Source: a virus (lineage: Duplodnaviria > Caudoviricetes). From it: 64,000 nt of DNA. The position numbers were made by a program, and so were the translations under genes. The stretch is taken from positions 32,001-96,000 of the IMG/VR virus record IMGVR_UViG_3300032240_001498; one strand, written 5' to 3'. Each line of letters starts with the position of its first letter. Positions within the stretch are counted from its first letter, which is position 1. Of this stretch, positions 6,553 to 22,983 are shown in pieces. The notes beneath the pieces were generated by a model, which saw only the letters and a list, made by a program, of their open reading frames with translations, made no database searches and was not told the DNA's origin.

Positions 6553-9500
6553 TTAGCCCTTTGATACCTGGCCAAAGTTTCCTGATTTAATTGCGCCGGT
6601 GTTAAGCAAGCGAACTGGAATGTAGATAAATTCAACTGCTTTAACTGGTTCTATCGCAATATCAACCCATAATTCAGAACGATCAATACGTGCTGTAGTG
6701 TTATTGCTTGTGTCGCATACAACGATAAAGTCATATAGGGCACGTTGTCCAACCAACTCTAATAAGAAACTTTCAACTGCGTTCTTAACTTCGTTGCGTG
6801 TTAGCTGATCATTTGGTTCGAACAAGTATGGACGAACAAGTAGATCTAACTGACGACGAACATAAGCTACTAAGCGAGCTACGTTGATACGGTCCAGCGC
6901 ACTTGTGCTGTTGCTTCTGCTGTAGTTACCAAAGTTTAAAATACCAGAACCATTTAGTGTGGCAATTGGGTTAATTCTAACTGTTTGTAACGCCATTACA
7001 TCACGTACACCTTGTGGCAATGCTGATGGAACAAAGTCACCTTCTGCATTAACATAACCAACTGATGTAGCATTATCTACACCACCACGGCGAACCCCTG
7101 CTGGAGCAAACCATTGATATGACTTAGAGTCACTGTTGATAAATGTGCGTAGCATCATGTGGCTTGGCGGAACAACAATATAGTTACCTGCATTATCGTT
7201 TGCATAACCACTTGGATAGAACAATGCTGTGTAGTCGTCGCGTGTTACTGCGCCGTCTTCGCCGTTGTCCACTGCTTTTGCAGAGTTATTGCCATATGCC
7301 TGAAGTGCTGTACCAGTTGCCTGTAAGCGGAATGGTGTATCACCGATAACAAATGCTGTCTGTGCGCGGTCTGCGTTTAGTGCAACCATGTTTGAGATTG
7401 CTTCAGGATAGCCTGGGCAAGCCATTAGGTTGAATACCAATGTATCTGTATCTTTCAATGCGTTATTGGTGTCAATTAATGATTTGAATGATTTAACAAC
7501 AAATCCGCGTTGTGCATGACGACCAAATGTGCCTGAACCGTCTGCATTGTTAGGACTTACTGTGACCCAACGTGCTGTGTTGTAGGCTGTTGTGGCATTT
7601 GATCCGTCCATTGGGTCACCTGTACGAATATTAACACCGTTATTGTCGTTAATATTGATATAGTTTGCAATGTATTGTTTTACATTGTAACCAGAACGGC
7701 GTAGATTCCATAGGCGTGTACCACGTGGGTATTGAGCAGGATCTGGAGCATCAGGATCAACGAAATCGCTGGCCAACAACTGTGGAAGTGTTCCTGCTGT
7801 TGTTGCGTAACCGTTTGCGGCCCAACGTGCATCGTGGAATACCCAACCATTTGGACTTGTTTGATCTGTAGGATCTTGTGCTTCCCACTTTAATGTATTA
7901 CCATTGTAAACATAGAAGTCCTTACCGTACATATCCATGTCGCCTGTTTGGATCCAGATGTCTCCGTTCTCTAGTGCAGTACCATCGCTTTGTGTAACAG
8001 GTTGTGTTACTGAAATAATAGGACCTGCAGGATCTGTTGCTGGGAAAGCATTCTTGTAACCAGTCCATTTTGTACCGTTGTGATACATGATGTCAACGGT
8101 ACTGAATACGTTACTGTACCATAATGTACTGTCAGCTGGTCTAGCTGTAGGAGCTGTCTTCGATGATGTAAACACTAAAGGAGCCCAGTTACTTGCTTTG
8201 AATGTGTAACCGTCAACTTCTTTTGTACCTGCGGCATAGAAGTTTGTAGTACCAGTCCATGTGTCAGCAAGAGTGTTGTAGGTGTAAGGAGCGAATCCTG
8301 CGGTAGATAAAATATTACCTGGATCTCTAAATTTAATCTCTCCACCAGCAGAGTGTACTATAGAAACAGTACCGTCTGCATTTAGAACAGCGGAAGTATA
8401 TTCAAACCCACCGGCGTTAATTGCAGTAACTAACGCAGACAATGTTGTACCAACTAGGGTAATTGCTGTTTCGTGCTCTAGCATTGAAGAACTTGTACCG
8501 CTTTCTTTGATTGTTAGAACTGCACCATTAGGTAGTGTAGGTGCAGGTGACAATGAAGTGCTGGTAATTGTTGTAGGAGCAACTGCTGAGCGTCTCCAAA
8601 TACGGAAGTCTGCAAAAGAAGCAAAATTGCTTGATGTAGTAGCAGTACCGTTACCGTGGTTGAAATTACTTTCAACAAATAATGTACCTACAGCGATCTT
8701 TGCACCACCTGATGTTTTATCTAGATTATAATTTGCTGTCTGTGCATCAGGATAAACTTGCGCAGAAATCTGTGTCCAATTTTGTGCAGTAGCATTGTAT
8801 TGTTTTACAATCCAAGTTGCACCTTGATCGGGACTGGTTGTTTTGACGTAGACAGAGCCACTTGGTCTTGCACTAAAATCTGGATATTGTGTATGTGGAC
8901 CAACAAATAGCTGTGGGCCATAATATGCCTTGGCTGAGTAGCCTAATGCAGATAGTGTGCTGTTAGTACCACCAATTGTAACTGTTCCAGGATTAGCATC
9001 AGCATAGATGTTTAGTTTACCTGCTTCGGCTTTAGCACCAATACCACTTGTGTGTAGTGTGCTGTTGATGCTTGCGGCAATAGTTGCAACAGTAGAAGCT
9101 GTGCTTACTGCAACAGTGGTACCGTTAATGATCAACGAGCCAGATGCTGTGGCAAAACTTGGATTAGTTGTAGTACCTGCGACTGTTGGGTAGCTTGTTA
9201 CCCATACTGTTGATTTAAATGTGCTTACGTTTGCGTTTGTAGCAAATGCTGTTTCGCCTGAGCTACCAACTTTTACCCAGTTACCGTCTTGATTCTTGTA
9301 TTGGGTTTCATTTGTGTTGCCGTGGTCGGTACAGATTGCATATGAACCTAATGCACCAAATCCTGGTTGAATTGTTACACCGTCATTGTTGACTGTTGAA
9401 ATTGCAGAATTAGACGAATCAATGATAGTTAAATTTTGTACACTGAATGAGCCTGCATTTGCGTCCCACTCAAACACGCCAAATCTAGTATTTGTAGTGT

Positions 9501-9918
9501 CTAACCAATATGTACCACCTGCTGGTGCGCCAACTGGTGCTGAGCTCTTGCCGACCAATTGACCAAGATCGACATCTGCGCGAGCAACAAATACTCTTGA
9601 GCTTACTCCCAGCACTGAATATGCGGCTTGTAATCCGTACTCGTTACGCTCGCCACCGTTTACTGGGTTGTTGCCTGAATCGACTTCAAAGTATGGTGTA
9701 CCAAATGTATCTGTAAGATCTCTCTGACTTGTGATAGTCCAAACTTGGTTTTTATACTTGCTTGTAGTACCGGCCGCTGTGCCAGTTCCTGAAGAATTTG
9801 GTTTATTTGCGGCAGTAGCGATAAAGATTAAAGGTACGGTCCCTGGGGCCGCTGGAGTATAAAAACTCTCGTTTACTATCTGTACTGATACGCCTGGTGA
9901 ATTTAAATTTTGTGCCAT
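6553..9918 (-). CDS. gp18: Tail sheath protein, enlarged (about 1121 aa)
   Basis: N-terminal SPGVSVQIVNES and LTDTFGTP. C-terminal PPSHMMLR, WFAPAGVRRG, INPIATL, LDRINVARL, LFEPND and PVKAVEFIYI. The start MAQNL at 9918 follows GGAG. Confidence 0.95.
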   Translation of the reverse strand: MAQNLNSPGVSVQIVNESFYTPAAPGTVPLIFIATAANKPNSSGTGTAAGTTSKYKNQVWTITSQRDLTDTFGTPYFEVDSGNNPVNGGERNEYGLQAAYSVLGVSSRVFVARADVDLGQLVGKSSAPVGAPAGGTYWLDTTNTRFGVFEWDANAGSFSVQNLTIIDSSNSAISTVNNDGVTIQPGFGALGSYAICTDHGNTNETQYKNQDGNWVKVGSSGETAFATNANVSTFKSTVWVTSYPTVAGTTTNPSFATASGSLIINGTTVAVSTASTVATIAASINSTLHTSGIGAKAEAGKLNIYADANPGTVTIGGTNSTLSALGYSAKAYYGPQLFVGPHTQYPDFSARPSGSVYVKTTSPDQGATWIVKQYNATAQNWTQISAQVYPDAQTANYNLDKTSGGAKIAVGTLFVESNFNHGNGTATTSSNFASFADFRIWRRSAVAPTTITSTSLSPAPTLPNGAVLTIKESGTSSSMLEHETAITLVGTTLSALVTAINAGGFEYTSAVLNADGTVSIVHSAGGEIKFRDPGNILSTAGFAPYTYNTLADTWTGTTNFYAAGTKEVDGYTFKASNWAPLVFTSSKTAPTARPADSTLWYSNVFSTVDIMYHNGTKWTGYKNAFPATDPAGPIISVTQPVTQSDGTALENGDIWIQTGDMDMYGKDFYVYNGNTLKWEAQDPTDQTSPNGWVFHDARWAANGYATTAGTLPQLLASDFVDPDAPDPAQYPRGTRLWNLRRSGYNVKQYIANYININDNNGVNIRTGDPMDGSNATTAYNTARWVTVSPNNADGSGTFGRHAQRGFVVKSFKSLIDTNNALKDTDTLVFNLMACPGYPEAISNMVALNADRAQTAFVIGDTPFRLQATGTALQAYGNNSAKAVDNGEDGAVTRDDYTALFYPSGYANDNAGNYIVVPPSHMMLRTFINSDSKSYQWFAPAGVRRGGVDNATSVGYVNAEGDFVPSALPQGVRDVMALQTVRINPIATLNGSGILNFGNYSRSNSTSALDRINVARLVAYVRRQLDLLVRPYLFEPNDQLTRNEVKNAVESFLLELVGQRALYDFIVVCDTSNNTTARIDRSELWVDIAIEPVKAVEFIYIPVRLLNTGAIKSGNFGQVSKG

Positions 9919-9953
9919 TCTATGCATCTCCCATGTAATGGTTTGTTCATCAG

Positions 9954-9990
9954 TATTTAGCGGTTGCACCAAATTTTACTTGGTTAAATA
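9954..9990. promoter_or_regulatory. Divergent pair of late promoter cores
   Basis: TATTTA at 9954-9959 (TAAATA on the minus strand, toward the sheath) and TAAATA at 9985-9990 (plus strand, toward the HNH-like gene). Confidence 0.55.
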
Positions 9991-13412: not shown

Positions 13413-14843
13413 ATGGAGTTCTTTTACGATGGACAGATAAGACGTTACCTAACACAGTTTATGCGTCTAATGAGCAACTTTAGTTATAGAGATGCTAAAG
13501 GAAAAATTGTACAGGTTCCTGTTCGCTACGGTGACATGAATAGACAGGTAGCACAACTACAAAAGAAGAACAGTGAAAACACTATTCCAAGTGCTCCATT
13601 CATTGCCTGTTATATCAAAGACCTTAAAGTAGCTAGAACTAGAATACAAGAACCTACACATATCAGCAAGGTACATATCAAAGAGCGAGACTCGTGGTAT
13701 AATCCTGCTACAGGGCAAGATGAGTATCTCAACGTAGAAGGCGAAAACTATACAGTTGAACGATTAATGCCTGTTCCTTATGACTTGACCTTTCAAGCAG
13801 ATATATGGACCACTAACACAGATCAAAAATTGCAGTTGATTGAACAGCTATTGGTATTATTCCGACCTAGTTTAGAATTGCAAACAACTGACAATTATCT
13901 AGATTGGACCAGCCTAAGTACCTTGGAACTTACTGAGATGACTTTTAGCAGTAGACAAATTCCACAAGGAACAGAACAAGATATTGATATTTGCACCATG
14001 CAGTTTGAAACGCCTATATGGTTAACAACACCTGCAAAAGTTAAACAGATGGGCATCATTACAAATATTATTACTTCAATATTTGTTGAACCAGAAGGCA
14101 CACTAAATGCAGGAGGGTATCACAATGGCGGTGAAGTTGATTATTTTGCCGGCAGGCAGGCGGTATCAGTTGAAGGTACAACTCTAGGCAATCTCGGAAT
14201 ACTGGTATTGAACAGCACAGCCAAGCTATTAGCACCTGCAGAAGGTGTTACTACTGACGAAGTTCCTTTTAAATATGGAACAAATATCAGTTGGTTAAGA
14301 ATCTTAGACCTATATCCTGGAAAGTTTAAGGCAGGATTAAGTCAAATTAGGATTAAGAAGCCGTCTGGGTCAGAGATTGTTGCACGTATCAGTCTAGATC
14401 CTAATGACGAGTCTATCATGCACCTTGACATAGACTCAGATACTATCCCGGCAAATAACCAAGTTCCTCCGGGCAGTGGAAAAACATACGTTGATGCTAT
14501 CGTTGATCCTACTACCTTTGATCCTACCAGTCCTGTTGCAGGTATAAGATATCTTATACTAGAGGATGTCAACACAGATCCAAAATTAGACTATGCTATC
14601 GCCAACGATACTGCGGCTAAAGCATGGCGAAATTCAGATGCAACATATCTTGTGGCACACGCAAACGATATCGTAACATGGAACGGTTCACACTGGTCCG
14701 TTGTTTTCGATTCGCGCACAGTTACCGATCTCACTTATATAACTAATACTAGAACAGGCATACAATATGTCTGGGATGGCTCCATGTGGGGCAAGAGTTA
14801 TGAAGGTGAATACCGATCTGGTAATTGGCGATTATTTTTATGA
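13413..14843 (+). CDS. gp15: Tail sheath stabiliser/terminator (gp15-like) with a C-terminal extension
   Basis: FFYDGQIRRYLTQF, VPVRYG, PVPYDLTFQADIWT and QLIEQLLVLFRPSLE. Confidence 0.85.
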   Translation: MEFFYDGQIRRYLTQFMRLMSNFSYRDAKGKIVQVPVRYGDMNRQVAQLQKKNSENTIPSAPFIACYIKDLKVARTRIQEPTHISKVHIKERDSWYNPATGQDEYLNVEGENYTVERLMPVPYDLTFQADIWTTNTDQKLQLIEQLLVLFRPSLELQTTDNYLDWTSLSTLELTEMTFSSRQIPQGTEQDIDICTMQFETPIWLTTPAKVKQMGIITNIITSIFVEPEGTLNAGGYHNGGEVDYFAGRQAVSVEGTTLGNLGILVLNSTAKLLAPAEGVTTDEVPFKYGTNISWLRILDLYPGKFKAGLSQIRIKKPSGSEIVARISLDPNDESIMHLDIDSDTIPANNQVPPGSGKTYVDAIVDPTTFDPTSPVAGIRYLILEDVNTDPKLDYAIANDTAAKAWRNSDATYLVAHANDIVTWNGSHWSVVFDSRTVTDLTYITNTRTGIQYVWDGSMWGKSYEGEYRSGNWRLFL

Positions 14844-15268
14844 GTAATATAATTTGTAGTGGTGGAATATTTTTAGCAACAGATACTAAAAGATTTTTAT
14901 TTCTTTTACGCAATCAAGGCAAAACTGCTGGTACATGGGGTATTGTTGGTGGCAAAAATGAGCCGTTAGATGGTACACCTATTGCTACACTAAACAGAGA
15001 AATCACAGAAGAAGTTGGATTCCTGCCAGCGATTGACAAGTATGTTCCACTTGAATTGTTTACCAGCAAAGATGAAGGGTTTTATTACCACACATATTTG
15101 CTGTTAACCAAAGAAGAATTTATCCCCAAACTAAATGAAGAACATGTAGGGTACGCATGGTGTGATATAGAGCACACACCAAAACCATTACACAATGGTG
15201 TGCGTGTTACACTTAATAATAAGATTATTAAAGCTAAGATAGATACCGTAATCGATATCTTAACTTGA
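14840..15268 (+). CDS. Nudix hydrolase
   Basis: Nudix box GGKNEPLDGTPIATLNREITEEVG and EHVGYAW. It has an ATGA overlap with gp15. Confidence 0.85.
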   Translation: MSNIICSGGIFLATDTKRFLFLLRNQGKTAGTWGIVGGKNEPLDGTPIATLNREITEEVGFLPAIDKYVPLELFTSKDEGFYYHTYLLLTKEEFIPKLNEEHVGYAWCDIEHTPKPLHNGVRVTLNNKIIKAKIDTVIDILT

Positions 15269-16954
15269 TTTACGGACTACTAACAAGTAGAATCCATTCC
15301 ACCAAGCAGTTAAATCTTCCTGATTGTTTAGAATTACTTTAGAGTAAACAACATCTAATCCTGCGGCTTTAATGCCAGCATCAGTTCCGTCAACAACACC
15401 TTCCCAATTAGCATCATCTACTAGAATAAATGCTTCCTTGGCTAATATCTTAGAAAAGTATTTGATTGCTTTTGCTGTGGTATTAGGATCGTGAGGACCG
15501 TCATAGAAGAAAAAGTCTACCGGCTCAATCTCATCTAGATTAACAGCAAACAAGTCTGATTCATAGACTATGACTTTGTTGTCACCTTTGAATCTTTTCA
15601 CATTAGTGATAAAATCTTCTTTGTTATTTGGTGGCATTTCAAAGATGTCATTCGCTGGTTGGTAAGTGTCTTGCCATGTATCAATGCAGATTACTTCTAG
15701 CTTGTTATCTTTTAGAGCCGCACATGCTGTTGCACCTAGCGCACTACCTACTTCTAAATAGCGTGTAGAATTCTTAGCCAACTTATTGATAAGACTTTCC
15801 ATCTTCCAGCTTGTTAATCCAGGAACATCAATGTTTATCATGTCAATAGCACTATTCAATACTGCATCAATAGCCTGTTGGATTCTTGGACTAACAGGTG
15901 TGCTTTGTTTTTTGCTTACAACTTTATCGCAATACTGACATTCCCAGCAATCAAATTTGCAATTTTTAATTTTTTCTCGCCAAATGTTAATTGGCTTTTC
16001 TGTTAGGTTGCCTTCTTCAATATATTGTTCAAAGCCGTCAAACAGAATTTCGTCGCCTTCAATAAATCCTGCAACAATATCAAGTGTTTCGTGAAAGCGT
16101 TCAACACTTTCTCTACCGTGCATTTTAAACACATCGACATAGTCAAGTAATTCTACCCAATCTTCTCTCCAAGGAGGTAAGTTGGCAGTTTTTAATGGAA
16201 CACTTGGATCTTCATGATCCCATTTAGGACAACTTACACGACTGATACTGTCGTTAAAGTATTGAGGACGACCTGTATCTCTAGTGTTGTTAAATTGATA
16301 ATGTTCGTCCATCATTGGGCAAGCACCTAAACAACCTTCATTAGCTAGGAGACTGATAGTAACATCGCGACCTAGATTTTCTTTGACCCAAGTTTTGGCA
16401 GTTTTTAATCTTGCAAGTGCGTCTCGATCGCGCATTAGATCACGATCAATACATACGTAGTCAAATCCAGCTTTTGCATGAGCAACAAATTCAGCAGGAG
16501 TACGTACATTACGCAGAATAGTATTCTTAACATACAGGTCTGGGTAACGTGCTTGTATCTGTCCAGTGCTCATCCAATGCGTATGTGGAAGTATTACTGA
16601 TCTAATACCTGCATCATACAAGGGCTGGAAATTTTCTAGCCAAATATTGAGATTTTCTTGAGTGGGCGGAACTTCAATGTTATTGAAAGTAGCGCAAAGA
16701 GGGATGCCGGTCTCCCTGTTAAGGTTGAACGCGGCATCTATTACAGAGAATGCGTCTTGCTGAGAAACAAATATGTCTCCCATTGCATCTTGATTAAACG
16801 GAGGAATTCTTGATGTAAAGTATATATCAAAGATATAATCTTTATAGTGCTTACAAAACTCTAAAAAATTAAAGTATTGTGCTTCCGTTAATTTTGGGTT
16901 TATCGGTAAGCTGAATATTTTTTGCGTCTTCGCAGTAGTCTGGGATTCGTTCAT
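15260..16954 (-). CDS. U32-peptidase-like Fe-S TIM-barrel domain fused to a class I SAM methyltransferase
   Basis: The N-terminal part has DRDLMRD, LANEGCLGACP, VSCPKW, FKMHGR and CKFDCWECQYC. The C-terminal part has YLEVGSALGAT, FFFYDGPHD and ILVDDANW, a Methyltransf_24-like pattern. Confidence 0.7.
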   Translation of the reverse strand: MNESQTTAKTQKIFSLPINPKLTEAQYFNFLEFCKHYKDYIFDIYFTSRIPPFNQDAMGDIFVSQQDAFSVIDAAFNLNRETGIPLCATFNNIEVPPTQENLNIWLENFQPLYDAGIRSVILPHTHWMSTGQIQARYPDLYVKNTILRNVRTPAEFVAHAKAGFDYVCIDRDLMRDRDALARLKTAKTWVKENLGRDVTISLLANEGCLGACPMMDEHYQFNNTRDTGRPQYFNDSISRVSCPKWDHEDPSVPLKTANLPPWREDWVELLDYVDVFKMHGRESVERFHETLDIVAGFIEGDEILFDGFEQYIEEGNLTEKPINIWREKIKNCKFDCWECQYCDKVVSKKQSTPVSPRIQQAIDAVLNSAIDMINIDVPGLTSWKMESLINKLAKNSTRYLEVGSALGATACAALKDNKLEVICIDTWQDTYQPANDIFEMPPNNKEDFITNVKRFKGDNKVIVYESDLFAVNLDEIEPVDFFFYDGPHDPNTTAKAIKYFSKILAKEAFILVDDANWEGVVDGTDAGIKAAGLDVVYSKVILNNQEDLTAWWNGFYLLVVRKSS

Positions 16955-17705
16955 CTCTACTCTCTAGTAATTTATCGATAGAACTTTGTACGCCTAACGA
17001 TATATTATGTATCCCTGCTTGGACCTGCCCAGCATACTTTGTGGCCATTTGTAGGGCTTCAATTTGATCACCTTCTGGCATCATGGCAATACTGTCCATG
17101 TTGCCTGATGCAATACGACCAAAACTGATAATATCCATAGCGGCCTGTTTACCCATACGTGCAATCCAGTACTTGCGTTCTTCTTCTGCATTTTCTGCGG
17201 CAAACCATTCAAGGTCCTCTTCAGTTTTTGCATAGAATTTAACAATTTCTAAGAAAGCATTAATTTCTCGCTCTGCTTGGAGCATTTTACGTTTCCAAAT
17301 AGTAATATCGTAATCGTTTTTATCGATATCTACTTGCAACATTTCTTTAGCAATTTCGTCAACAGCTTCGGCTTGGTCACGCACCCACTTTTTACGAAGT
17401 AGTTCTGCTTTGCGAAGGCTTGCTTTAATTTCTTGATAAGCGTGATAGCGTGACTCGAGCTCCATATAGGCTTGTCGAACCTGACGCCATGGAGTAAGTT
17501 GACTGCGGGCTACAAAGTTTTGACATTGATAGGCAGTCATACCCATATTTGAATGTACGGCATAGGTCATGATTTCTTTTTCAAAATCACCCATATCGTA
17601 CCTTTTTAGAAAATCGTCATCGATATGTATTTCAGCTACATCTGAAGCTACGATATTTTCTATGTCTTTGATGTATGTGTTTATTTTTTTAGAATTGGAA
17701 TCCAT
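16869..17705 (-). CDS. Hypothetical helical/coiled-coil protein
   Basis: 278-aa ORF with a charged helical core (RQAYMELESRY...LRKAELLRKKW). It overlaps both neighbours. Confidence 0.7.
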   Translation of the reverse strand: MDSNSKKINTYIKDIENIVASDVAEIHIDDDFLKRYDMGDFEKEIMTYAVHSNMGMTAYQCQNFVARSQLTPWRQVRQAYMELESRYHAYQEIKASLRKAELLRKKWVRDQAEAVDEIAKEMLQVDIDKNDYDITIWKRKMLQAEREINAFLEIVKFYAKTEEDLEWFAAENAEEERKYWIARMGKQAAMDIISFGRIASGNMDSIAMMPEGDQIEALQMATKYAGQVQAGIHNISLGVQSSIDKLLESRDERIPDYCEDAKNIQLTDKPKINGSTIL

Positions 17706-18630
17706 GTGGCACCTGTGTTTTTCTTACGAAACTGTCAGGTCCTTCGGTCCATCCTAGCTCTTGTGCTTGCTTTACTGGGACAGCCAATCCGAAGTACCTT
17801 TCGTATTGAATATTTATATCCCACACAGTTTGGGCCGCTTTGAAATCGGCTATGACTCTTTGCTGTGCTACAAGTAGATCAGATAGTTGATCTTCGTAGG
17901 CTTCTGCTTTTTCTAAAATTTTGTTTGCTAATGCTGTTTTATCTTTATTGTGTGAAGTTGCTAGATAATCTAAAAATGGTGTGCGTGACCCATTTTGTCC
18001 TTGATTAGCTAACCATTCGCGAGCTTCATGTTTTTGTATTTCCCAAGATGCTTGCTCTAATTTACCACTTGGAGCCATTGTTAAAAATCTACGTTCAAAC
18101 TCATCTTCAATTGTTTCTTTAGCAAATAAGAACATGAAATCACGAACGTCTTTTACGATATCATCAGTTAGCTCTACCTGACGCTTGAAACCTGCATCCA
18201 AGTTTTGTACTGGAGAAATACCATCAGGTCCATGTGCTCTATCTTCTGTGTTTGCTATCCAAACTTTGGCCGCAGTACGATAGTCTGCAAAAAATTGCTT
18301 GCCATTAATTGCTACACTTTCTGTAATGTATGTAACTTTTGCTTTAGGCCATGTATAGTGTAGTGTATCATGCAGGTGTTTACTCATTGCTACGCATTGT
18401 ACATTAAATAGGCTATATAGTTCTTCACAATATAATGCAGGATCTTGGTGTGTGCTGTCAAACAATGAGTTAGGCAGCACATGATCTCCCACAATCATGA
18501 ATACTGTTGCTGAATTTACAAAAGTGTTGATATCATACGCAGGATCTCCTGAATATAATGCGGGAGGTAAAGCTTCTACGTTTGGATAAACTGATACATC
18601 CCAAAAGTCTACTGAATATTCTTGTGTCAT
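17689..18630 (-). CDS. Hypothetical protein whose C-terminus resembles tail-fibre assembly-associated proteins
   Basis: EQASWEIQKHEAREWL...TPFLDYLA...LANKILEKAEAY resembles a motif found in genes downstream of phage tail fibres. Confidence 0.55.
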   Translation of the reverse strand: MTQEYSVDFWDVSVYPNVEALPPALYSGDPAYDINTFVNSATVFMIVGDHVLPNSLFDSTHQDPALYCEELYSLFNVQCVAMSKHLHDTLHYTWPKAKVTYITESVAINGKQFFADYRTAAKVWIANTEDRAHGPDGISPVQNLDAGFKRQVELTDDIVKDVRDFMFLFAKETIEDEFERRFLTMAPSGKLEQASWEIQKHEAREWLANQGQNGSRTPFLDYLATSHNKDKTALANKILEKAEAYEDQLSDLLVAQQRVIADFKAAQTVWDINIQYERYFGLAVPVKQAQELGWTEGPDSFVRKTQVPHGFQF

Positions 18631-18631
18631 A

Positions 18632-19753
18632 TTAAACTCCTGGACGTCCTGAACTTGCTACTGTAGCCGCCGCCGAAACTGCGTGACCTGAACTTGCACC
18701 ATAGTGCCCTTTGTTACGTGTTGCCGCTGGCATACGTGTTTGTGCGTTGTTGTTATAAGTTGTCTTATCGCACTTGTTGTTTTGCTGGCCGTCATAGTTA
18801 CCAGTCATATAACCCCAGTCTTGTCCTGCCATCATAACGTCTTCGCCGTATGCTGATATCTGTGAGAAGTAGGCAATAGCTGAACCAGATGTTTCGTTAA
18901 ACTGCACACGACCTTGCTGTACGTTGTTGCCAGTACCGCTGTAATGCCAACCATATTTGGTGCTCAATAACTTCATGAATCCGTCTGGAGTAAACTGTGT
19001 CGGTGATCCAAACCATGAATCGTTTGAGTGATAAATGCCTGATGATCCGCCGCCGATTGAGAACCAAGAAATTTCTTGGCCGCCGCAACCTGAAGTTGGG
19101 CCACCACCGCGATTGTTACCAGTGGTGGTATACATGACTTCTGATGGAAAGTGCATCTTTTCTGTTGAGCTCGGACCTCCGCCTGTGCAATAACCGTATT
19201 GATAGGTTGCGGCACTGGTCGAACCGTGTGTTCTGCGGTTTACTGACATGTCCCAACCGCCAACTGTACCGTAGCCCATAACCGCCTGAGGATCGTCGCC
19301 CACATAACCGAATGAATAAGGACTGAATGTACCGCCTGTTTTACTGCGATTGATACCTGTATACAAGTTAAAACTGTCAGTGTGGCTGTTTGCTCCACCA
19401 AAGCCATTGTTTGTACCCAATGAGTAACCGTTATAGTCTGAGAAGAAACCATCCATGTAGTCTCCGGAATACATTAGCTGTTCTCCGCAGTAGTAGGTAA
19501 TATCTGTTGAATGCCATGTCTTGTTTAAGGCACGCCATGAATTGCCGCCCTTATAACCAGCCGCACTAAATCCGTGTGTTAACACACTACGGTATCTGTA
19601 ACCTGCTTGCGGGTTACCCGATGGGCTACCTGGATAAGTCCAAAATGCTGTAGTTCCGTCAGTTACCAACGTTGCGCCGCGGCAGTATGTGTCCGAACTT
19701 GGTAGCGGATAAATGCCCGGAATAATGTTAGTGTTACCAATGTATAATGCCAT
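18632..19753 (-). CDS. Gly/Ser/Tyr-rich repeat protein, possibly a beta-propeller fibre-tip protein
   Basis: Repeated units with GY..GG, for example YGYCTGGG and WGYMTGNY. The leader has GAGGAAACTAAC. Confidence 0.6.
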   Translation of the reverse strand: MALYIGNTNIIPGIYPLPSSDTYCRGATLVTDGTTAFWTYPGSPSGNPQAGYRYRSVLTHGFSAAGYKGGNSWRALNKTWHSTDITYYCGEQLMYSGDYMDGFFSDYNGYSLGTNNGFGGANSHTDSFNLYTGINRSKTGGTFSPYSFGYVGDDPQAVMGYGTVGGWDMSVNRRTHGSTSAATYQYGYCTGGGPSSTEKMHFPSEVMYTTTGNNRGGGPTSGCGGQEISWFSIGGGSSGIYHSNDSWFGSPTQFTPDGFMKLLSTKYGWHYSGTGNNVQQGRVQFNETSGSAIAYFSQISAYGEDVMMAGQDWGYMTGNYDGQQNNKCDKTTYNNNAQTRMPAATRNKGHYGASSGHAVSAAATVASSGRPGV

Positions 19754-19778: not shown

Positions 19779-22295
19779 TTATTTAAGTAGCTGGGCTACC
19801 AATGCTTTTAACTGTGCAACTTCTTCTTTTAGTTGCGCAATTTCGTCTGAATGTTCGTTGTGTCCTGCAATTACCAAGGGCACTAATTTTTCGTACTGTA
19901 CAGTTAGATAGTTTTCGCCGGATTTGCTCTGGCCGTTTTCGTCTACGTCTAATGCCGCTAATCCCACAGCTTGGGGCTGTACAGCCTGTACTTGTGCCGC
20001 GTTCACACCAACCTGTTCACGAGTAGATTTTTGTCCTAGGCTAAGAGCCAGCTCGTTATTAACGTAGATAAATGTATCAAGTGTTTTTAGTTTGGCGCTG
20101 GCACTGGTTACAGGAGCAATAACTGTTTTTAGTCTAATATCAGATGTATTAGAATAAATGTCACCTGTTACATATAGTACGCCGTTGACCTGTATTGCAC
20201 CAGTACCGTTTGATTGTAGTGTGTTGTTGCCTGAACGATATATGTACCATTCGCCAGTACCGTTACCGCGCAGATATGTACCACTGGCGTAATTGTAAGT
20301 ACCAAAGAATAAGGATCCGCCACTTGTAACGTTAATATCGCCTGATCCGTTTACCTGTAAACATACGCCCGAGCCGTTACCTACAGAGTTGTTGTTTAAA
20401 GTCAATGCACCCGATGCCGCACCAGTGATAGTATGGGTAACGCCTGAGTTGCTGATTGTTAGTTGGTTGCTACCGTTGATAGTTGTGAAGTTGCCCGAGT
20501 AGGCTGTAACGCCAGAACCAATCGGTCCTTGGAATGTTGTTGTAGCAATAACTGTTGGGCAGGATAATGTAGTAGTACCTGGATTATAAGTTAGTGATGC
20601 GCTGTTGACGTTAAGTGTTGTGATCGCACCACTTACTGAGTTTGTAAATGTTGGGTAATAAGTAGCGTTGGTTGTAATGTTTGCAACAGTAACACCAGTC
20701 TGCGCCCATTGGAGTCCAGTACCAGTCGATGTCAGTGCGTAACCACTTGTACCTGCAGATCCACCAATGTATAATGCTCCGCGGAGAGTTAGTCCACTTG
20801 CAATATCAACACCGCCTGCAACTGCAAATGCGCCTGTACCTGCTGTACCGTTGGCCGCAGTAGTTGAGTTAACTGTAAAGTCACCACTGCCGTTGGCAAT
20901 TAATCTAATGTTACCTGCGCCGTCTGAAATAATAATACCGTTAGAAACAATGGTTCCGCCTGCATTACCACCTATGATAACTGCGTTGTTGATTGCGGCA
21001 CCAATACTTGTACCAGCACCGTAACCAATTAGGGTATTACTTGCTCCGCTGACTAACGCATTACCTGCATTATAACCAATCAAGGTATTTTGATAGCCAC
21101 CGGCCATTTGGAAACCAGCTTGATAACCAATTGCAGTATTGTTGTAGAAGCCACCGTTACCTGTACCTAGCGCACGATAACCAATCGCCACGTTGTTCTG
21201 CATGGCTGTATTATTGGCAGTATACATGGCCTGATAACCAATAGCAGTATTGTTACCGCCTGTGGCTGTTTGGGCCAATAACGCTTGATAACCAATTGCA
21301 GTATTACCTGCAGAACTTGTCAGTGCGTTACCTGCATAGTAACCAATCAGCGCATTAGTACCACCAGTTAATAGTGCGGCACCTGCACCTGTACCTACAA
21401 CTAAATTTGTTGCAATACTTGAGTTACCTGTACCAAAACGTACACCGCTGTGGAAAGCATCACTGCCTGTTACAATACCACCGCCTGCTGATATACCACC
21501 ATAGGTTACGATAGCACCAGTACCTGTTGATGCAATACCAGATGCGATAGTGATTGCTGTTGATAGTGGTATGCTTATACCAGTAGCACTAACTGTTAAT
21601 CCGTTTAGTTGTGTTGCAATGGCACCAGCTGATTGACTGGCGCTTGATACTAAAAAGTTTAAATTGCCAGATGTTAATTGAACTTGTGCATTATAGCCTG
21701 TACCGCTTACATAAGTTGTACCAGCGTTATTGTAGCTGTTTAGGCCAATGCCTAACGGATATGTACTTGCGCCAACCTGAATAGCAACAGCTTGCGAATT
21801 TCCTGAATTATAAAAGTAGCCAGCAACGTTTGTAGTTGTGCTAACTGTAATACCATATGTAGATCCTGCACCACCAACACCTAAGTTAGCGTTCATGGCA
21901 AACGAACCGCCGATATTTAAGTTACCCGAAATACCTGCACCACCAAATACCTGTAGACTACCTGTTTGTGTTGTTGTAGATTGTATTGGGCTTGTAGATG
22001 CACCAATGTATGTAACACCATTGTATGGGGCAATGTTAACTGCGCCGGTATCTTGTACAATAAGACTTGGTATACCGCTCTTATCTGTAACGGTATACAA
22101 ATAACCAGCCATACTGTCGATCACACTTTGTAACTGTCCGTTCGTACCTTCCCATGCTTGCGTACCATTATCTAGAACACGCACATACGTAGATGCAGAG
22201 CTGGCCGAAGCGCCGCCAGTAAACCTTATGATCGGCTCGGTTGTGCTTGAACCAATGTTTGGCGTTATTAAAATATTACGATCTGTATATGCCAT
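19779..22295 (-). CDS. Tail fibre with NTAIGY repeats and a C-terminal peptidase S74 intramolecular chaperone
   Basis: About 8 N(T/V/A)xIGYxA repeats. The C-terminus has SDIRLK...GVNAAQVQAVQP...YLTVQYEKLVPLVI plus a coiled coil. Confidence 0.85.
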   Translation of the reverse strand: MAYTDRNILITPNIGSSTTEPIIRFTGGASASSASTYVRVLDNGTQAWEGTNGQLQSVIDSMAGYLYTVTDKSGIPSLIVQDTGAVNIAPYNGVTYIGASTSPIQSTTTQTGSLQVFGGAGISGNLNIGGSFAMNANLGVGGAGSTYGITVSTTTNVAGYFYNSGNSQAVAIQVGASTYPLGIGLNSYNNAGTTYVSGTGYNAQVQLTSGNLNFLVSSASQSAGAIATQLNGLTVSATGISIPLSTAITIASGIASTGTGAIVTYGGISAGGGIVTGSDAFHSGVRFGTGNSSIATNLVVGTGAGAALLTGGTNALIGYYAGNALTSSAGNTAIGYQALLAQTATGGNNTAIGYQAMYTANNTAMQNNVAIGYRALGTGNGGFYNNTAIGYQAGFQMAGGYQNTLIGYNAGNALVSGASNTLIGYGAGTSIGAAINNAVIIGGNAGGTIVSNGIIISDGAGNIRLIANGSGDFTVNSTTAANGTAGTGAFAVAGGVDIASGLTLRGALYIGGSAGTSGYALTSTGTGLQWAQTGVTVANITTNATYYPTFTNSVSGAITTLNVNSASLTYNPGTTTLSCPTVIATTTFQGPIGSGVTAYSGNFTTINGSNQLTISNSGVTHTITGAASGALTLNNNSVGNGSGVCLQVNGSGDINVTSGGSLFFGTYNYASGTYLRGNGTGEWYIYRSGNNTLQSNGTGAIQVNGVLYVTGDIYSNTSDIRLKTVIAPVTSASAKLKTLDTFIYVNNELALSLGQKSTREQVGVNAAQVQAVQPQAVGLAALDVDENGQSKSGENYLTVQYEKLVPLVIAGHNEHSDEIAQLKEEVAQLKALVAQLLK

Positions 22296-22329: not shown

Positions 22330-22983
22330 TTATAATCCAAAACTTGAGCGATATGCTTGAAACACTAATTTTACTTCAGTGTCACTTAGTACTCTGCTGT
22401 AAAATAGGGTTGGGCCTATCTGTCCGTTAGGAGGTCCGCTGTAAAATAGCTGGAGGTTACCAGCTATGCTTGCAGAACCTGCTAGGTTGTTTTGTGCATC
22501 TAGCACTCCGTTATAATAAAGTTTGCTGGTTGCTGTTCCACCTGCTGAACCTGTTCCGCTAAAACTACCTGCCCAGCAATGCCATGTGTTCAAAGGCACA
22601 GTTGTATTTGAAGTAAGGTCGCCGCCAGTTAGGTAAGTTTCCCAACGCATGTTTGTTGCGTTACCCATGTACAAGTTTGCAGTATTTGAACCAGAAGTAT
22701 AACCAAAAGTTCCGCCTGCACGAGTAGTTAAATTCATGAACTGAATTACTGTATATCCCGAAGTTAAACTCAACGAGTAAGAATTATTACTGGTGATAGT
22801 GTAGGCCGCACCTGGAGTAAAATAGTTGCCCGACCATGCACTTGAAGAGCTTAAGGTTAGCGCCTGATTATCAATTTGATTATATGCGGCTGTGCCTGTT
22901 CCTGGATAGCATTTTGTATTACGAGGATCGGCCATAAAGACCAAACCTGAAAGAGGAATATAAGGTCCTATTGAGATTGACAT
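22330..22983 (-). CDS. LamG/concanavalin-A-like lectin domain protein
   Basis: GLVFMADPRN..CYPGTG, NTWHCWAG, KLYYNG and LFYSRVLSDTEV. Confidence 0.75.
   Translation of the reverse strand: MSISIGPYIPLSGLVFMADPRNTKCYPGTGTAAYNQIDNQALTLSSSSAWSGNYFTPGAAYTITSNNSYSLSLTSGYTVIQFMNLTTRAGGTFGYTSGSNTANLYMGNATNMRWETYLTGGDLTSNTTVPLNTWHCWAGSFSGTGSAGGTATSKLYYNGVLDAQNNLAGSASIAGNLQLFYSGPPNGQIGPTLFYSRVLSDTEVKLVFQAYRSSFGL

What the first reader, a model, noticed from the sequence alone, without database searches (positions are those of the whole stretch)
15260..16954. U32-family Fe-S domain fused to a Methyltransf_24-like SAM methyltransferase
Seen: LANEGC-x3-C (~16333-16319), VSCPKW (~16230), FKMHGR and a CxxxCxxCxxC cluster (~15960-15928), then a class I MTase domain from about 15800. 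Established knowledge: characterised U32 proteins (RlhA, TrhP, UbiU/UbiV) are Fe-S-dependent, O2-independent hydroxylases rather than proteases, and their hydroxylation is often followed by O-methylation (tRNA mo5U, ubiquinone). Inference: this could be a single-polypeptide hydroxylate-then-methylate enzyme with an unknown substrate.
Basis: partly seen in the sequence, partly recalled or inferred. Interest (0 to 1): 0.7.

Follow-up and report, generated by a model that had tools for sequence, protein, structure and literature searches.

The report
Phage U32-like enzyme fused to O-methyltransferase
A large marine phage encodes one protein that joins a very divergent, cysteine-rich relative of the oxygen-independent 'U32' iron-sulfur hydroxylases to an O-methyltransferase; it belongs to a conserved gene cassette with a tail-fibre-tip protein that also occurs in a bacterial chromosome, and its substrate is unknown.

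Summary

- **N-terminal domain (aa 1-352):** AlphaFold gives a confident TIM barrel (pLDDT 93). Its best solved match is the U32 protein Mk0906 (Z 16.8, next fold 12.2-12.6). Sequence models do not place it in Pfam U32. A small profile-profile test gives only E 6e-5.
- **Cysteines:** seven are invariant (C208, C212, C242; C332, C336, C339, C342). Three can be aligned with U32 [4Fe-4S] ligands. The last four form an extra CX3CX2CX2C box.
- **C-terminal domain:** Methyltransf_24, with cation-dependent catechol/TrmR-type O-methyltransferases as nearest folds.
- **Fusion:** it is not an artefact. It is present in 121 phage genomes and 79 of 79 informative viral loci.

Context adds something new. 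The gene ends a cassette of fibre-tip-type protein (phrog_1417), phrog_1604 and phrog_1409, sometimes followed by a DUF401-like membrane protein. Parts of this cassette recur in a phiKZ-like Ralstonia phage. All of it, without the methyltransferase, recurs in a Leptospirales chromosome.

The hydroxylate-then-methylate reading is plausible but untested, and the substrate is open. The scan had already flagged this family on other genomes.

The parts
15260..16954 (-). Whole gene: 564-aa fusion protein (P0001), stop codon included
   Evidence: ORF list and translation; phrog_1458 over the full length, E 7e-165
15899..16954 (-). N-terminal U32-like (beta/alpha)8 barrel plus Cys-rich tail, aa 1-352
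   Evidence: AF2 pLDDT 93, pTM 0.91; Mk0906 Z 16.8; hhalign against a small U32 set E 6e-5 to 8e-5
16229..16333 (-). First Cys group: C208-x3-C212 ... C242 (with invariant E206, E217, H218), in the loop after strand beta7
   Evidence: Invariant in 64 sequences. In the global hhalign alignment C208 and C212 align with TrhP C170 and C177, and C242 with the Cys of the U32 'CRW' motif
16112..16129 (-). F276-K-M-H-G-R281 motif on strand beta8, counterpart of U32 'LKIEGR'
   Evidence: K277, G280 and R281 are at least 90% conserved and align with LKIEGR of the E. coli U32 proteins
15929..15961 (-). Second Cys group: C332-x3-C336-x2-C339-x2-C342, lying outside the part matched by Mk0906
   Evidence: All four invariant; the Mk0906 alignment ends at residue 290
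15263..15898 (-). C-terminal class I SAM O-methyltransferase-type domain, aa 353-564 (Pfam match at 15413-15757)
   Evidence: PF13578, 47 bits; AF2 pLDDT 94.6; nearest folds are Rv0187 OMT at Z 17.2 and TrmR at Z 15.7; invariant E401, G403, G407, D425, D485, D513, D514 and nearly invariant N516
16869..17705 (-). phrog_1409 gene (278 aa, no known family), overlapping the start of the fusion gene by 86 nt
   Evidence: phrog_1409 E 6e-65; upstream on the same strand in 67 of 71 viral loci; also in RP31, P-SSM4 and the Leptospirales locus
17689..18630 (-). phrog_1604 gene (313 aa), cassette member; only weak leads to tail-fibre-assembly-type proteins
   Evidence: profile hits in P-SSM4, L013, L015 and the Leptospirales locus; Atlas leads at 0.76-0.77 only
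18632..19753 (-). phrog_1417 gene (373 aa; 16% Gly, 8% Tyr), cassette member and candidate partner or substrate
   Evidence: the domain is also found at the C-terminus (aa 1218-1500) of a 1523-aa Laminin_G_3 protein in the Leptospirales MAG; conserved Y67, Y99, Y315, Y320, Y333 and E304
19779..22295 (-). Tail-fibre gene (838 aa) heading the block
   Evidence: PHROG tail-fibre families; the homologue in L015 carries Peptidase_S74

Best explanation
The gene encodes a two-domain enzyme. The N-terminal domain is a very divergent member of the U32 superfamily: a TIM barrel that probably holds one or two iron-sulfur clusters on its seven invariant cysteines. By analogy with TrhP, RlhA and UbiU/UbiV it would add a hydroxyl group to an aromatic or heteroaromatic carbon without O2, with prephenate as the likely oxygen donor. 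The C-terminal domain is a cation-dependent, catechol/TrmR-type O-methyltransferase that would then methylate the new hydroxyl, so the net product is a methoxy group. The enzyme does not act alone. It is the last gene of a cassette (phrog_1417 fibre-tip-type protein, phrog_1604, phrog_1409, then the U32-like enzyme, with or without the methyltransferase and with or without a DUF401-like membrane protein). The substrate is therefore more likely tied to that cassette, either a residue of the phrog_1417-type protein or a small molecule handled at the membrane, than to tRNA. Shown here: the domain folds, the conservation of the cysteines and of the SAM and acidic motifs, the conservation of the fusion, and the cassette. 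Inferred: Fe-S binding, hydroxylase chemistry, coupling of the two steps, and the substrate.
For: N-domain fold:
- The AF2 model is confident (pLDDT 93).
- Mk0906 (U32) is the top match in an exhaustive search and stands 4.2-4.6 Z units above all other TIM barrels.
- Canonical PF01136 clusters match at TM 0.73 over 306 residues. Sister viral clusters have 20% of members carrying PF01136 or are auto-named 'Peptidase U32 (Fragment)'.
- One homologue is named 'collagenase-like PrtC family protease' by JGI.
- hhalign against a small U32 set gives E 6e-5 to 8e-5 over beta3-beta6, with the remaining motifs in register.

Cysteines: seven are invariant down to about 22% identity. C208 and C212 align with TrhP C170 and C177, which are essential. 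Cysteine spacing also varies among proven U32 Fe-S proteins, as in UbiU CX6CX16CX38C and UbiV CXnCX12CX3C (PMC6747719).

Methyltransferase: PF13578. The nearest folds are cation-dependent O-methyltransferases, including TrmR. The SAM motif is invariant, as are the acidic residues after beta4 (D485) and beta5 (D513, D514); N516 is nearly invariant.

Fusion: full length in 121 of 126 phage records and fused in 79 of 79 loci that reach the C-terminus. One split form keeps the two genes adjacent and overlapping.

Precedents for hydroxylation followed by O-methylation: the trmR-trhP2-trhP1 operon (PMC6599085) and UbiU/V (PMC10990095).

Cassette:
- phrog_1409 lies upstream in 67 of 71 loci, and the DUF401-like gene downstream in 26 of 76.
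- The same partners occur in Ralstonia phage RP31 and in a Leptospirales chromosome.
- RP31's U32-like, phrog_1409 and DUF401-like proteins do not occur in its virion proteome table, while the flanking ORF133 and ORF140 do.
Against: - No sequence model places the N-domain in U32, and the profile-profile probability is only 61-65%.
- The U32 signature is altered. CX3C replaces CX6C, there is no counterpart of the third Cys, and TrhP's essential E162 aligns with S201.
- A direct hydroxylase activity has not been shown in vitro even for TrhP, RlhA or UbiU/V.
- The methyltransferase is absent from the cassette in RP31 and in the Leptospirales locus. Methylation is therefore not essential to the core function and need not act on the product of the U32-like domain.
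- This 200-kb record holds no chorismate mutase gene, although the host would supply prephenate.
- I could not inspect model coordinates, so the geometry of the cysteines is untested.
Confidence: 0.45

Rival explanations
1. Same chemistry, but the substrate is RNA. The protein would be a one-chain phage version of TrhP plus TrmR that makes 5-methoxyuridine at the tRNA wobble position (or a 5-hydroxy or 5-methoxy pyrimidine in rRNA), retuning decoding towards the phage's AT-rich codons.
For: The only characterised U32 partnership with a COMT-type methyltransferase is trmR-trhP2-trhP1 (PMC6599085). TrmR is among the nearest folds (Z 15.7; Foldseek rank 23). JGI names the C-domain 'YrrM'. C208 and C212 match the essential TrhP cysteines. 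RNA is a substrate shared by all the hosts involved.
Against: The gene is embedded in a fibre-tip cassette that is conserved from cyanophages to a Leptospirales chromosome. That cassette often includes a membrane protein, which an RNA enzyme would not need. TrmR does not stand out from other O-methyltransferases, and the MTase profile did not reach TrmR by sequence. No tRNA genes were found in the 200 kb held. The protein is strongly acidic (pI 4.85, charge -26), although TrhP is acidic too. The TrhP C-terminal domain (PF16325) is absent.
Confidence: 0.15
2. The N-domain is not a hydroxylase. It would be a U32-shaped Fe-S or zinc protein with another role in fibre maturation: proteolysis as the old 'U32 collagenase' name suggests, redox or cross-link chemistry, or radical chemistry from the CX3CX2C box. 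The methyltransferase would then act independently.
For: The U32 signature is not kept. C332-x3-C336-x2-C339 has the canonical radical-SAM spacing. An Atlas cluster of 622-aa bacterial radical-SAM proteins matches the model at TM 0.76. The cassette centres on a fibre-tip-type protein and a weakly tail-fibre-assembly-like protein. The cassette works without a methyltransferase in other hosts.
Against: No radical-SAM structure appears among the top 50 PDB matches, whereas U32 leads by more than 4 Z units. Pfam Radical_SAM does not hit. The CX3CX2C box lies in a C-terminal tail rather than after beta1. The cysteines essential in TrhP and RlhA are the ones conserved here. Peptidase activity of U32 proteins is itself doubtful (PMC6747719, PMC10990095).
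Confidence: 0.2
3. The substrate is a membrane quinone or another prenylated phenol. The enzyme would be UbiU/V-like ring hydroxylation followed by UbiG-like O-methylation, helped by the DUF401-like membrane protein, to remodel host electron transport.
For: UbiU/V hydroxylate phenolic rings, after which O-methylation follows in the pathway (PMC6747719, PMC10990095). The nearest methyltransferase folds are catechol O-methyltransferases. A membrane protein is coupled to the gene in RP31, L013 and the Leptospirales locus. Some distant homologues sit beside cyanophage pigment genes, heme oxygenase and bilin reductase.
Against: The usual cyanobacterial hosts of the T4-like relatives make plastoquinone, which has no methoxy groups (my own knowledge, not tested here). 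No UbiT/SCP2-like lipid carrier and no prenyl-pathway gene lies in the cassette. The constant partners are fibre-type proteins rather than metabolic genes.
Confidence: 0.1

Closest known systems
U32 family (Pfam PF01136); solved member Mk0906 of Methanopyrus kandleri (PDB 5d88)
   Same: Same (beta/alpha)8 barrel: Z 16.8, rmsd 3.2 A, 227 of 247 residues. There is a Cys pair directly after beta7 and a K-x-x-G-R motif on beta8.
   Different: Only 11% identity and no PF01136 hit. The Cys pair is CX3C rather than CX6C. An extra 60-residue tail carries a CX3CX2CX2C box with no counterpart in Mk0906. The family is almost entirely viral, whereas U32 proteins are described as 'almost exclusively' bacterial, with fewer in archaea (PMC10990095).
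TrhP (YegQ; B. subtilis TrhP1/TrhP2) with TrmR (YrrM): tRNA U34 to ho5U to mo5U
   Same: A U32-type domain paired with a cation-dependent O-methyltransferase-type enzyme, as in the trmR-trhP2-trhP1 operon. TrhP's essential C170 and C177 align with C208 and C212. TrmR is among the nearest folds of the C-domain (Z 15.7).
   Different: One polypeptide here rather than separate genes. TrhP E162 aligns with Ser. The Peptidase_U32_C domain is missing. TrmR is not singled out among O-methyltransferases. The gene context is fibre genes rather than translation genes.
UbiU-UbiV (with UbiT, and UbiG for methylation): O2-independent ubiquinone ring hydroxylation
   Same: U32-type proteins with a [4Fe-4S] cluster on four Cys, an accessory protein, and hydroxylation followed by O-methylation. 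The Cys spacing is variable, as here (PMC6747719). Prephenate is the oxygen donor (PMC10990095).
   Different: No significant sequence match: single-sequence hhalign probability is below 1%. There is no second U32 paralogue to form a heterodimer and no SCP2 protein. phrog_1409 has no known family.
Cation-dependent class I O-methyltransferases (COMT/CCoAOMT type, e.g. M. tuberculosis Rv0187, PDB 5x7f and 6jcl)
   Same: Best structural matches of the C-domain: Z 17.2, 170 residues, rmsd 2.9; Foldseek E 2e-9. It has a Gly-rich SAM loop and conserved acidic residues after beta4 and beta5.
   Different: 12-19% identity. By sequence it falls in Methyltransf_24, not Methyltransf_3. It has no close relatives outside this fusion family.

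Membership tests
Peptidase_U32 (Pfam PF01136) | Match to the family HMM above its gathering score | tested here: not met
   No PF01136 hit for P0001 even at E <= 1. Only 1 of 64 family members hits, at E 0.033. The six-frame search of the phage record gave no match.
Peptidase_U32 (Pfam PF01136) | (beta/alpha)8 barrel closest to a solved U32 protein | tested here: met
   5d88 is top of 48,161 chains at Z 16.8, with the next fold at 12.2. The second look gives the same order. Atlas PF01136 clusters match at TM 0.73 and 0.61.
Peptidase_U32 (Pfam PF01136) | Homology detectable by profile-profile comparison | tested here: inconclusive
   hhalign E 6e-5 to 8e-5 but probability only 61-65%, over aa 58-183. 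The U32 profile I could build had low diversity.
Peptidase_U32 (Pfam PF01136) | U32 motif with Glu and two Cys (TrhP E162, C170, C177; spacing CX6C) | tested here: not met
   Two Cys are present but the spacing is CX3C (C208, C212). The Glu position aligns with S201, and an invariant E206 lies elsewhere. The alignment in this stretch has low confidence.
Peptidase_U32 (Pfam PF01136) | Four-Cys [4Fe-4S] motif CX6CX15CX3/4C (or the UbiU and UbiV variants) | tested here: inconclusive
   Three of the four positions can be aligned (C208, C212, C242). The third U32 Cys aligns with I237. Four further invariant Cys lie at 332-342 and could supply the missing ligand or hold a second cluster. The geometry was not inspected.
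Peptidase_U32 (Pfam PF01136) | K-I-E-G-R motif on the last barrel strand | tested here: met
   F-K277-M-H-G280-R281, at least 90% conserved, aligns with LKIEGR.
Peptidase_U32 (Pfam PF01136) | Fe-S cluster binding and prephenate-dependent hydroxylation | not testable with these tools
   Needs anaerobic biochemistry and isotope labelling.
Methyltransf_24 / cation-dependent class I O-methyltransferases | Family HMM above cut-off | tested here: met
   PF13578 E 5e-12, 47 bits against 26.3, aa 400-514.
Methyltransf_24 / cation-dependent class I O-methyltransferases | Class I Rossmann-like fold, with O-methyltransferases as nearest structures | tested here: met
   AF2 pLDDT 94.6. VIA top hits are 5x7f at 17.2, 6g7d at 16.9 and 8c9v at 16.4. 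Foldseek top hits are 3tfw, 6jcl and 8c9s. The scores fall off smoothly, so the subfamily is not resolved.
Methyltransf_24 / cation-dependent class I O-methyltransferases | SAM-binding Gly-rich loop and acidic residue after beta2 | tested here: met
   E401, G403, G407 and D425 are invariant in 30 sequences and lie at strands 46-50 and 68-73 of the model.
Methyltransf_24 / cation-dependent class I O-methyltransferases | Metal-binding acidic residues after beta4 and beta5 | tested here: inconclusive
   D485 after beta4 and D513 and D514 after beta5 are invariant; N516 is nearly invariant. Assigning them as metal ligands rests on my recall of COMT/TylF-type enzymes, not on a test.
TrmR (tRNA ho5U34 O-methyltransferase) | Specific sequence relationship to TrmR | tested here: not met
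   No NCBIfam equivalog. The MTase profile against PDB sequences hit only 3ntv, at E 0.006, and not 5zw3. TrmR ranks 7th (VIA) and 23rd (Foldseek) among many O-methyltransferases.
Radical SAM (PF04055) | CX3CX2C cluster loop within a radical-SAM barrel; family HMM | tested here: inconclusive
   The CX3CX2C spacing exists at C332-C339, but there is no PF04055 hit and the box sits in a C-terminal tail. No radical-SAM chain is listed among the top PDB rows. One Atlas radical-SAM cluster matches at TM 0.76 and may be a fusion.

The most novel reading that the evidence does not exclude
The cassette is a dedicated maturation system for a receptor-binding fibre-tip domain. In this reading the U32-like Fe-S enzyme, helped by phrog_1409 and phrog_1604, hydroxylates a conserved aromatic side chain of the phrog_1417-type domain without O2, for example one of its invariant tyrosines. 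In cyanophages and marine jumbo phages the fused catechol-type methyltransferase then caps it as a methoxy group. That would be the first protein substrate for U32 chemistry and a new post-translational modification of phage adhesins, shared with a bacterial surface protein.
Probability: 0.12. Interest if true: 0.85.

Novelty: new variant of a known kind. Interest (0 to 1): 0.6.

Why it matters
U32 proteins are an emerging class of O2-independent, prephenate-using hydroxylases with only three known jobs (tRNA, rRNA, ubiquinone), and most of their subfamilies are unexplained. This is a very abundant viral clade: at least 535 IMG/VR contigs, about 2,000 protein clusters, and most sequenced S-RIM, Syn and P-SSM type cyanophages. 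It has an altered cysteine set, is fused to an O-methyltransferase, and sits in a portable cassette with a fibre-tip-type protein. Finding its substrate would show what this chemistry does in phage infection of ocean cyanobacteria. It could also reveal either a new modification of phage adhesins or a phage route to rewire host RNA or quinones. All databases I consulted annotate it as 'hypothetical protein', and I found no paper on it.

Tried and rejected
**Searches that gave no support**
- Sequence searches for U32 membership found nothing: Pfam, NCBIfam, phmmer and a 64-sequence profile against PDB sequences.
- hhalign against single UbiU or UbiV sequences gave probability below 1%.
- A protein search seeded with the four E. 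coli U32 paralogues returned almost only enterobacterial TrhP, so the U32 profile stayed shallow.
- Foldseek alone ranked generic TIM barrels (MTHFR) above U32 by E-value. The exhaustive aligner corrected this.

**Genome content of the 200-kb record (estimated 55% complete, so absences are weak)**
- No psbA, second U32, DUF401-like gene, chorismate mutase, radical-SAM gene or tRNA was found.

**Promoter signals**
- The T4 late-promoter motif TATAAATA occurs once against 5.3 expected, and sigma-70-like sites are at chance level. I therefore make no claim on expression timing.

**Cassette partners and variant forms**
- phrog_1409, phrog_1604 and phrog_1417 have no Pfam family and no significant PDB sequence match (weakest E 0.029); their Atlas look-alikes are unnamed or score below 0.8.
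- Other partner domains of the U32-like domain gave no Pfam family, except DUF7483 in P0125.
- The RP31 genome holds no homologue of the methyltransferase domain.

**Other checks**
- Isoelectric points do not discriminate RNA binding, because TrhP is acidic too.
- The supplements of the 2010 cyanophage paper list T4-GC354 only as 'hypothetical protein' and gave no virion data for it.
- I rejected the idea of an assembly artefact and the idea that the 400-450 aa relatives are canonical bacterial U32 proteins. Those relatives have no PF01136 hit, and the two whose contigs I looked up lie on phage-like contigs.
Full report
**1. The observation**

The window carries an ORF at 15260-16954 on the minus strand that encodes 564 aa. 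They are NEGC208-x3-C212, VSC242PKW, FKMHGR (aa 276-281) and C332-x3-C336-x2-C339-x2-C342, followed by a Pfam Methyltransf_24 match at aa 400-514 (47 bits against a cut-off of 26.3).

The gene is real and widespread:
- It matches phrog_1458 end to end (E 7e-165).
- tblastn finds it in 126 phage records, 121 of them at full length. All of these are T4-like cyanophages annotated 'hypothetical protein', apart from three Ralstonia jumbo phage records, of which the one listed (RP31) matches only the N-terminal domain.
- 1952 protein clusters match, and at least 535 IMG/VR contigs encode a relative.

The window comes from a 200.6-kb IMG/VR virus record that CheckV rates about 55% complete. An 80%-identical homologue lies, with the same gene order, on a 358-kb contig. 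The record holds no psbA. This is probably a T4-like jumbo phage rather than a classical cyanophage.

**2. The N-terminal domain**

Sequence models do not recognise it. Pfam, NCBIfam, phmmer and a 64-sequence profile against PDB sequences all gave nothing. Only 1 of 64 relatives touches PF01136, at E 0.033.

Structure does recognise it:
- The AlphaFold2 model built on the 64-sequence alignment is confident (pLDDT 93, pTM 0.91) and shows eight beta/alpha units.
- Foldseek returned generic TIM barrels.
- The exhaustive aligner placed the only solved U32 protein, Mk0906 (5d88), first of 48,161 chains. It scored Z 16.8, rmsd 3.2 A, with 227 of its 247 residues aligned. The next fold, MTHFR, scored 12.2. 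A second look over the full PDB gave the same order.
- In the ESM Atlas, canonical PF01136 clusters match at TM 0.73 over 306 residues. Sister viral clusters have 20% of members carrying PF01136 or are auto-named 'Peptidase U32 (Fragment)'.
- A profile-profile comparison with the few U32 sequences I could gather (the four E. coli paralogues plus a handful of others) gave E 6e-5 to 8e-5, but only 61-65% probability, over strands beta3-beta6.

The extended alignment keeps the remaining motifs in register:
- C208 and C212 fall on TrhP C170 and C177, which are essential in TrhP (the RlhA equivalents are also required; PMC6599085).
- C242 falls on the Cys of the U32 'CRW' motif.
- FKMHGR falls on LKIEGR.

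There are clear differences from U32 proteins:
- The spacing is CX3C, not CX6C.
- The third U32 cysteine has no counterpart.
- TrhP's essential Glu aligns with Ser.
- A 60-residue tail beyond the part matched by Mk0906 adds four more invariant cysteines.

All seven cysteines are invariant across 64 sequences down to about 22% identity. Proven U32 Fe-S proteins also vary in cysteine spacing, as in UbiU and UbiV (PMC6747719). One or two clusters are therefore plausible. I could not read model coordinates, so the geometry is untested.

My reading is that this is a distant branch of the U32 superfamily and not a member of Pfam U32 as currently defined.

**3. The C-terminal domain**

The model is confident (pLDDT 94.6). 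Both structure searches rank small cation-dependent O-methyltransferases first: Rv0187 at Z 17.2, MeT1 at 16.9, bacterial catechol O-methyltransferases, and B. subtilis TrmR at 15.7. The scores fall off smoothly, so the subfamily is not resolved.

The Gly-rich SAM loop (E401, G403, G407) and D425 are invariant. So are the acidic residues after beta4 (D485) and beta5 (D513, D514); N516 is nearly invariant.

The domain has no close relatives outside this fusion family. All 55 hits are fragments or split versions.

**4. The fusion**

The two domains are fused in 79 of 79 viral loci that reach the C-terminus. One contig has them split into adjacent, overlapping genes. An assembly artefact is excluded.

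The gene is the last of a same-strand block: tail fibre (838 aa), phrog_1417 (373 aa), phrog_1604 (313 aa), phrog_1409 (278 aa, overlapping the fusion gene by 86 nt), then the fusion.

Across 80 viral loci:
- phrog_1409 lies upstream on the same strand in 67 of 71 informative cases.
- phrog_1417 lies upstream in 40 of 57.
- A DUF401/CitMHS-like membrane protein (phrog_14035) lies downstream in 26 of 76, directly adjacent in 8.

P-SSM4 has the same order, genes 032 to 035.

The phiKZ-like Ralstonia phage RP31 keeps phrog_1409, the U32-like gene and the DUF401-like gene as a tight trio. No methyltransferase-domain homologue was found anywhere in its genome. In its published virion proteome table, the flanking ORF133 and the collagen-like ORF140 were detected, while the trio does not occur (PMC5468394 supplement). 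That fits non-structural proteins.

The complete cassette without the methyltransferase also sits on a 6.44-Mb contig of a Leptospirales MAG. The genes there have overlapping starts and run in this order:
- a 1523-aa DUF6519/DUF2341/Laminin_G_3 protein whose C-terminus (aa 1218-1500) is a phrog_1417-type domain
- phrog_1409
- phrog_1604
- the U32-like gene
- the DUF401-like gene

It lies among ordinary cellular genes: an ECF sigma factor, MsrB, patatin, a guanylate cyclase and others.

The conserved unit is thus a four- to five-gene cassette built around a phrog_1417-type domain, and the methyltransferase is an add-on found in cyanophages and marine jumbo phages. The phrog_1417 domain is rich in Gly, Ser, Thr and Tyr. 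It keeps several tyrosines and one glutamate even in the bacterial copy.

**6. Mechanism**

The best-supported reading is an Fe-S, U32-type, O2-independent hydroxylation followed by O-methylation. This mirrors the two known precedents: TrhP with TrmR in an operon, and UbiU/V with prephenate as oxygen donor.

The cassette argues that the substrate is linked to the fibre-tip-type protein or to the membrane, rather than to tRNA. I put 0.45 on this statement as a whole. The rivals are:
- RNA as substrate: 0.15
- a non-hydroxylase role in fibre maturation, including radical-SAM-like chemistry from the CX3CX2C box: 0.20
- quinone or lipid as substrate: 0.10

None can be excluded with sequence tools. 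The absence of tRNA genes, chorismate mutase and radical-SAM genes from the partial genome and the acidic pI are weak evidence.

**7. Novelty**

My searches of open full text found no paper that describes a phage U32-like protein. The 2024 PNAS paper states that U32 proteins are almost exclusively bacterial, with fewer in archaea.

Earlier notes of this scan flagged the same fusion on at least five other genomes, and two follow-ups reached a similar reading. I tested the domain assignments and the 'helper gene' claim independently.

Verdict: a real, abundant and undescribed variant of a known enzyme kind, with an open substrate.

Noticed in passing
window 22985-36598 (-): A single ORF of 4537 aa lies just upstream of the fibre block. 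An ORF of at least 4435 aa occupies the same place on the related 358-kb contig. It is probably a giant fibre or structural protein.
   Followed up: no
window 6553-9972 (-): An 1139-aa ORF. Its counterpart on the related contig L015 (1136 aa) carries Phage_sheath_1C and a faint Flagellin_IN hit. If it is a tail sheath it is nearly twice the T4 size (T4 size from my own knowledge), which suggests a large inserted domain.
   Followed up: no
window 14825-15268 (+) and 15260-16954 (-): A NUDIX hydrolase gene converges on the fusion gene, and the two 3' ends overlap by 9 nt. This arrangement is kept in all close relatives (L016-L028).
   Followed up: partly
window 16869-16954: The phrog_1409 gene and the fusion gene overlap by 86 nt. 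The same 86-nt overlap is seen in 9 related loci, and shorter overlaps (14-77 nt) in 9 others. This suggests translational coupling.
   Followed up: partly
L099 3847-12180 (Leptospirales MAG, contig CBDEUV010000002.1): The whole cassette without the methyltransferase lies in a bacterial chromosome, headed by a 1523-aa DUF6519/DUF2341/Laminin_G_3 protein and not visibly inside a prophage. A DAHP synthase gene (shikimate pathway) lies about 8 kb downstream, possibly by coincidence.
   Followed up: partly
ESM Atlas, row 6: A cluster of 622-aa bacterial (Acidobacteriota) 'radical SAM domain' proteins matches the U32-like model at TM 0.76 over 309 residues. It may be a radical-SAM/U32-like fusion. 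The sequences could not be fetched.
   Followed up: no
P0125 (553 aa), P0204/P0210 (427-446 aa); loci L009-L011: Some relatives carry the U32-like domain with other tails: DUF7483 in place of the methyltransferase, or an unassigned 90-150 aa extension. Those lie beside a Trp-halogenase gene, or beside heme oxygenase and bilin reductase genes, without the cassette partners.
   Followed up: partly
whole window: The T4 late-promoter motif TATAAATA occurs once in 64 kb, against 5.3 expected by chance. This phage may use a different late-promoter signal. No tRNA gene was found in the 200 kb held.
   Followed up: no
window 22330-22983 (-): A 217-aa Laminin_G_3 (concanavalin-like lectin) protein lies between the giant ORF and the tail fibre. 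The same domain occurs in the bacterial cassette's large protein.
   Followed up: no
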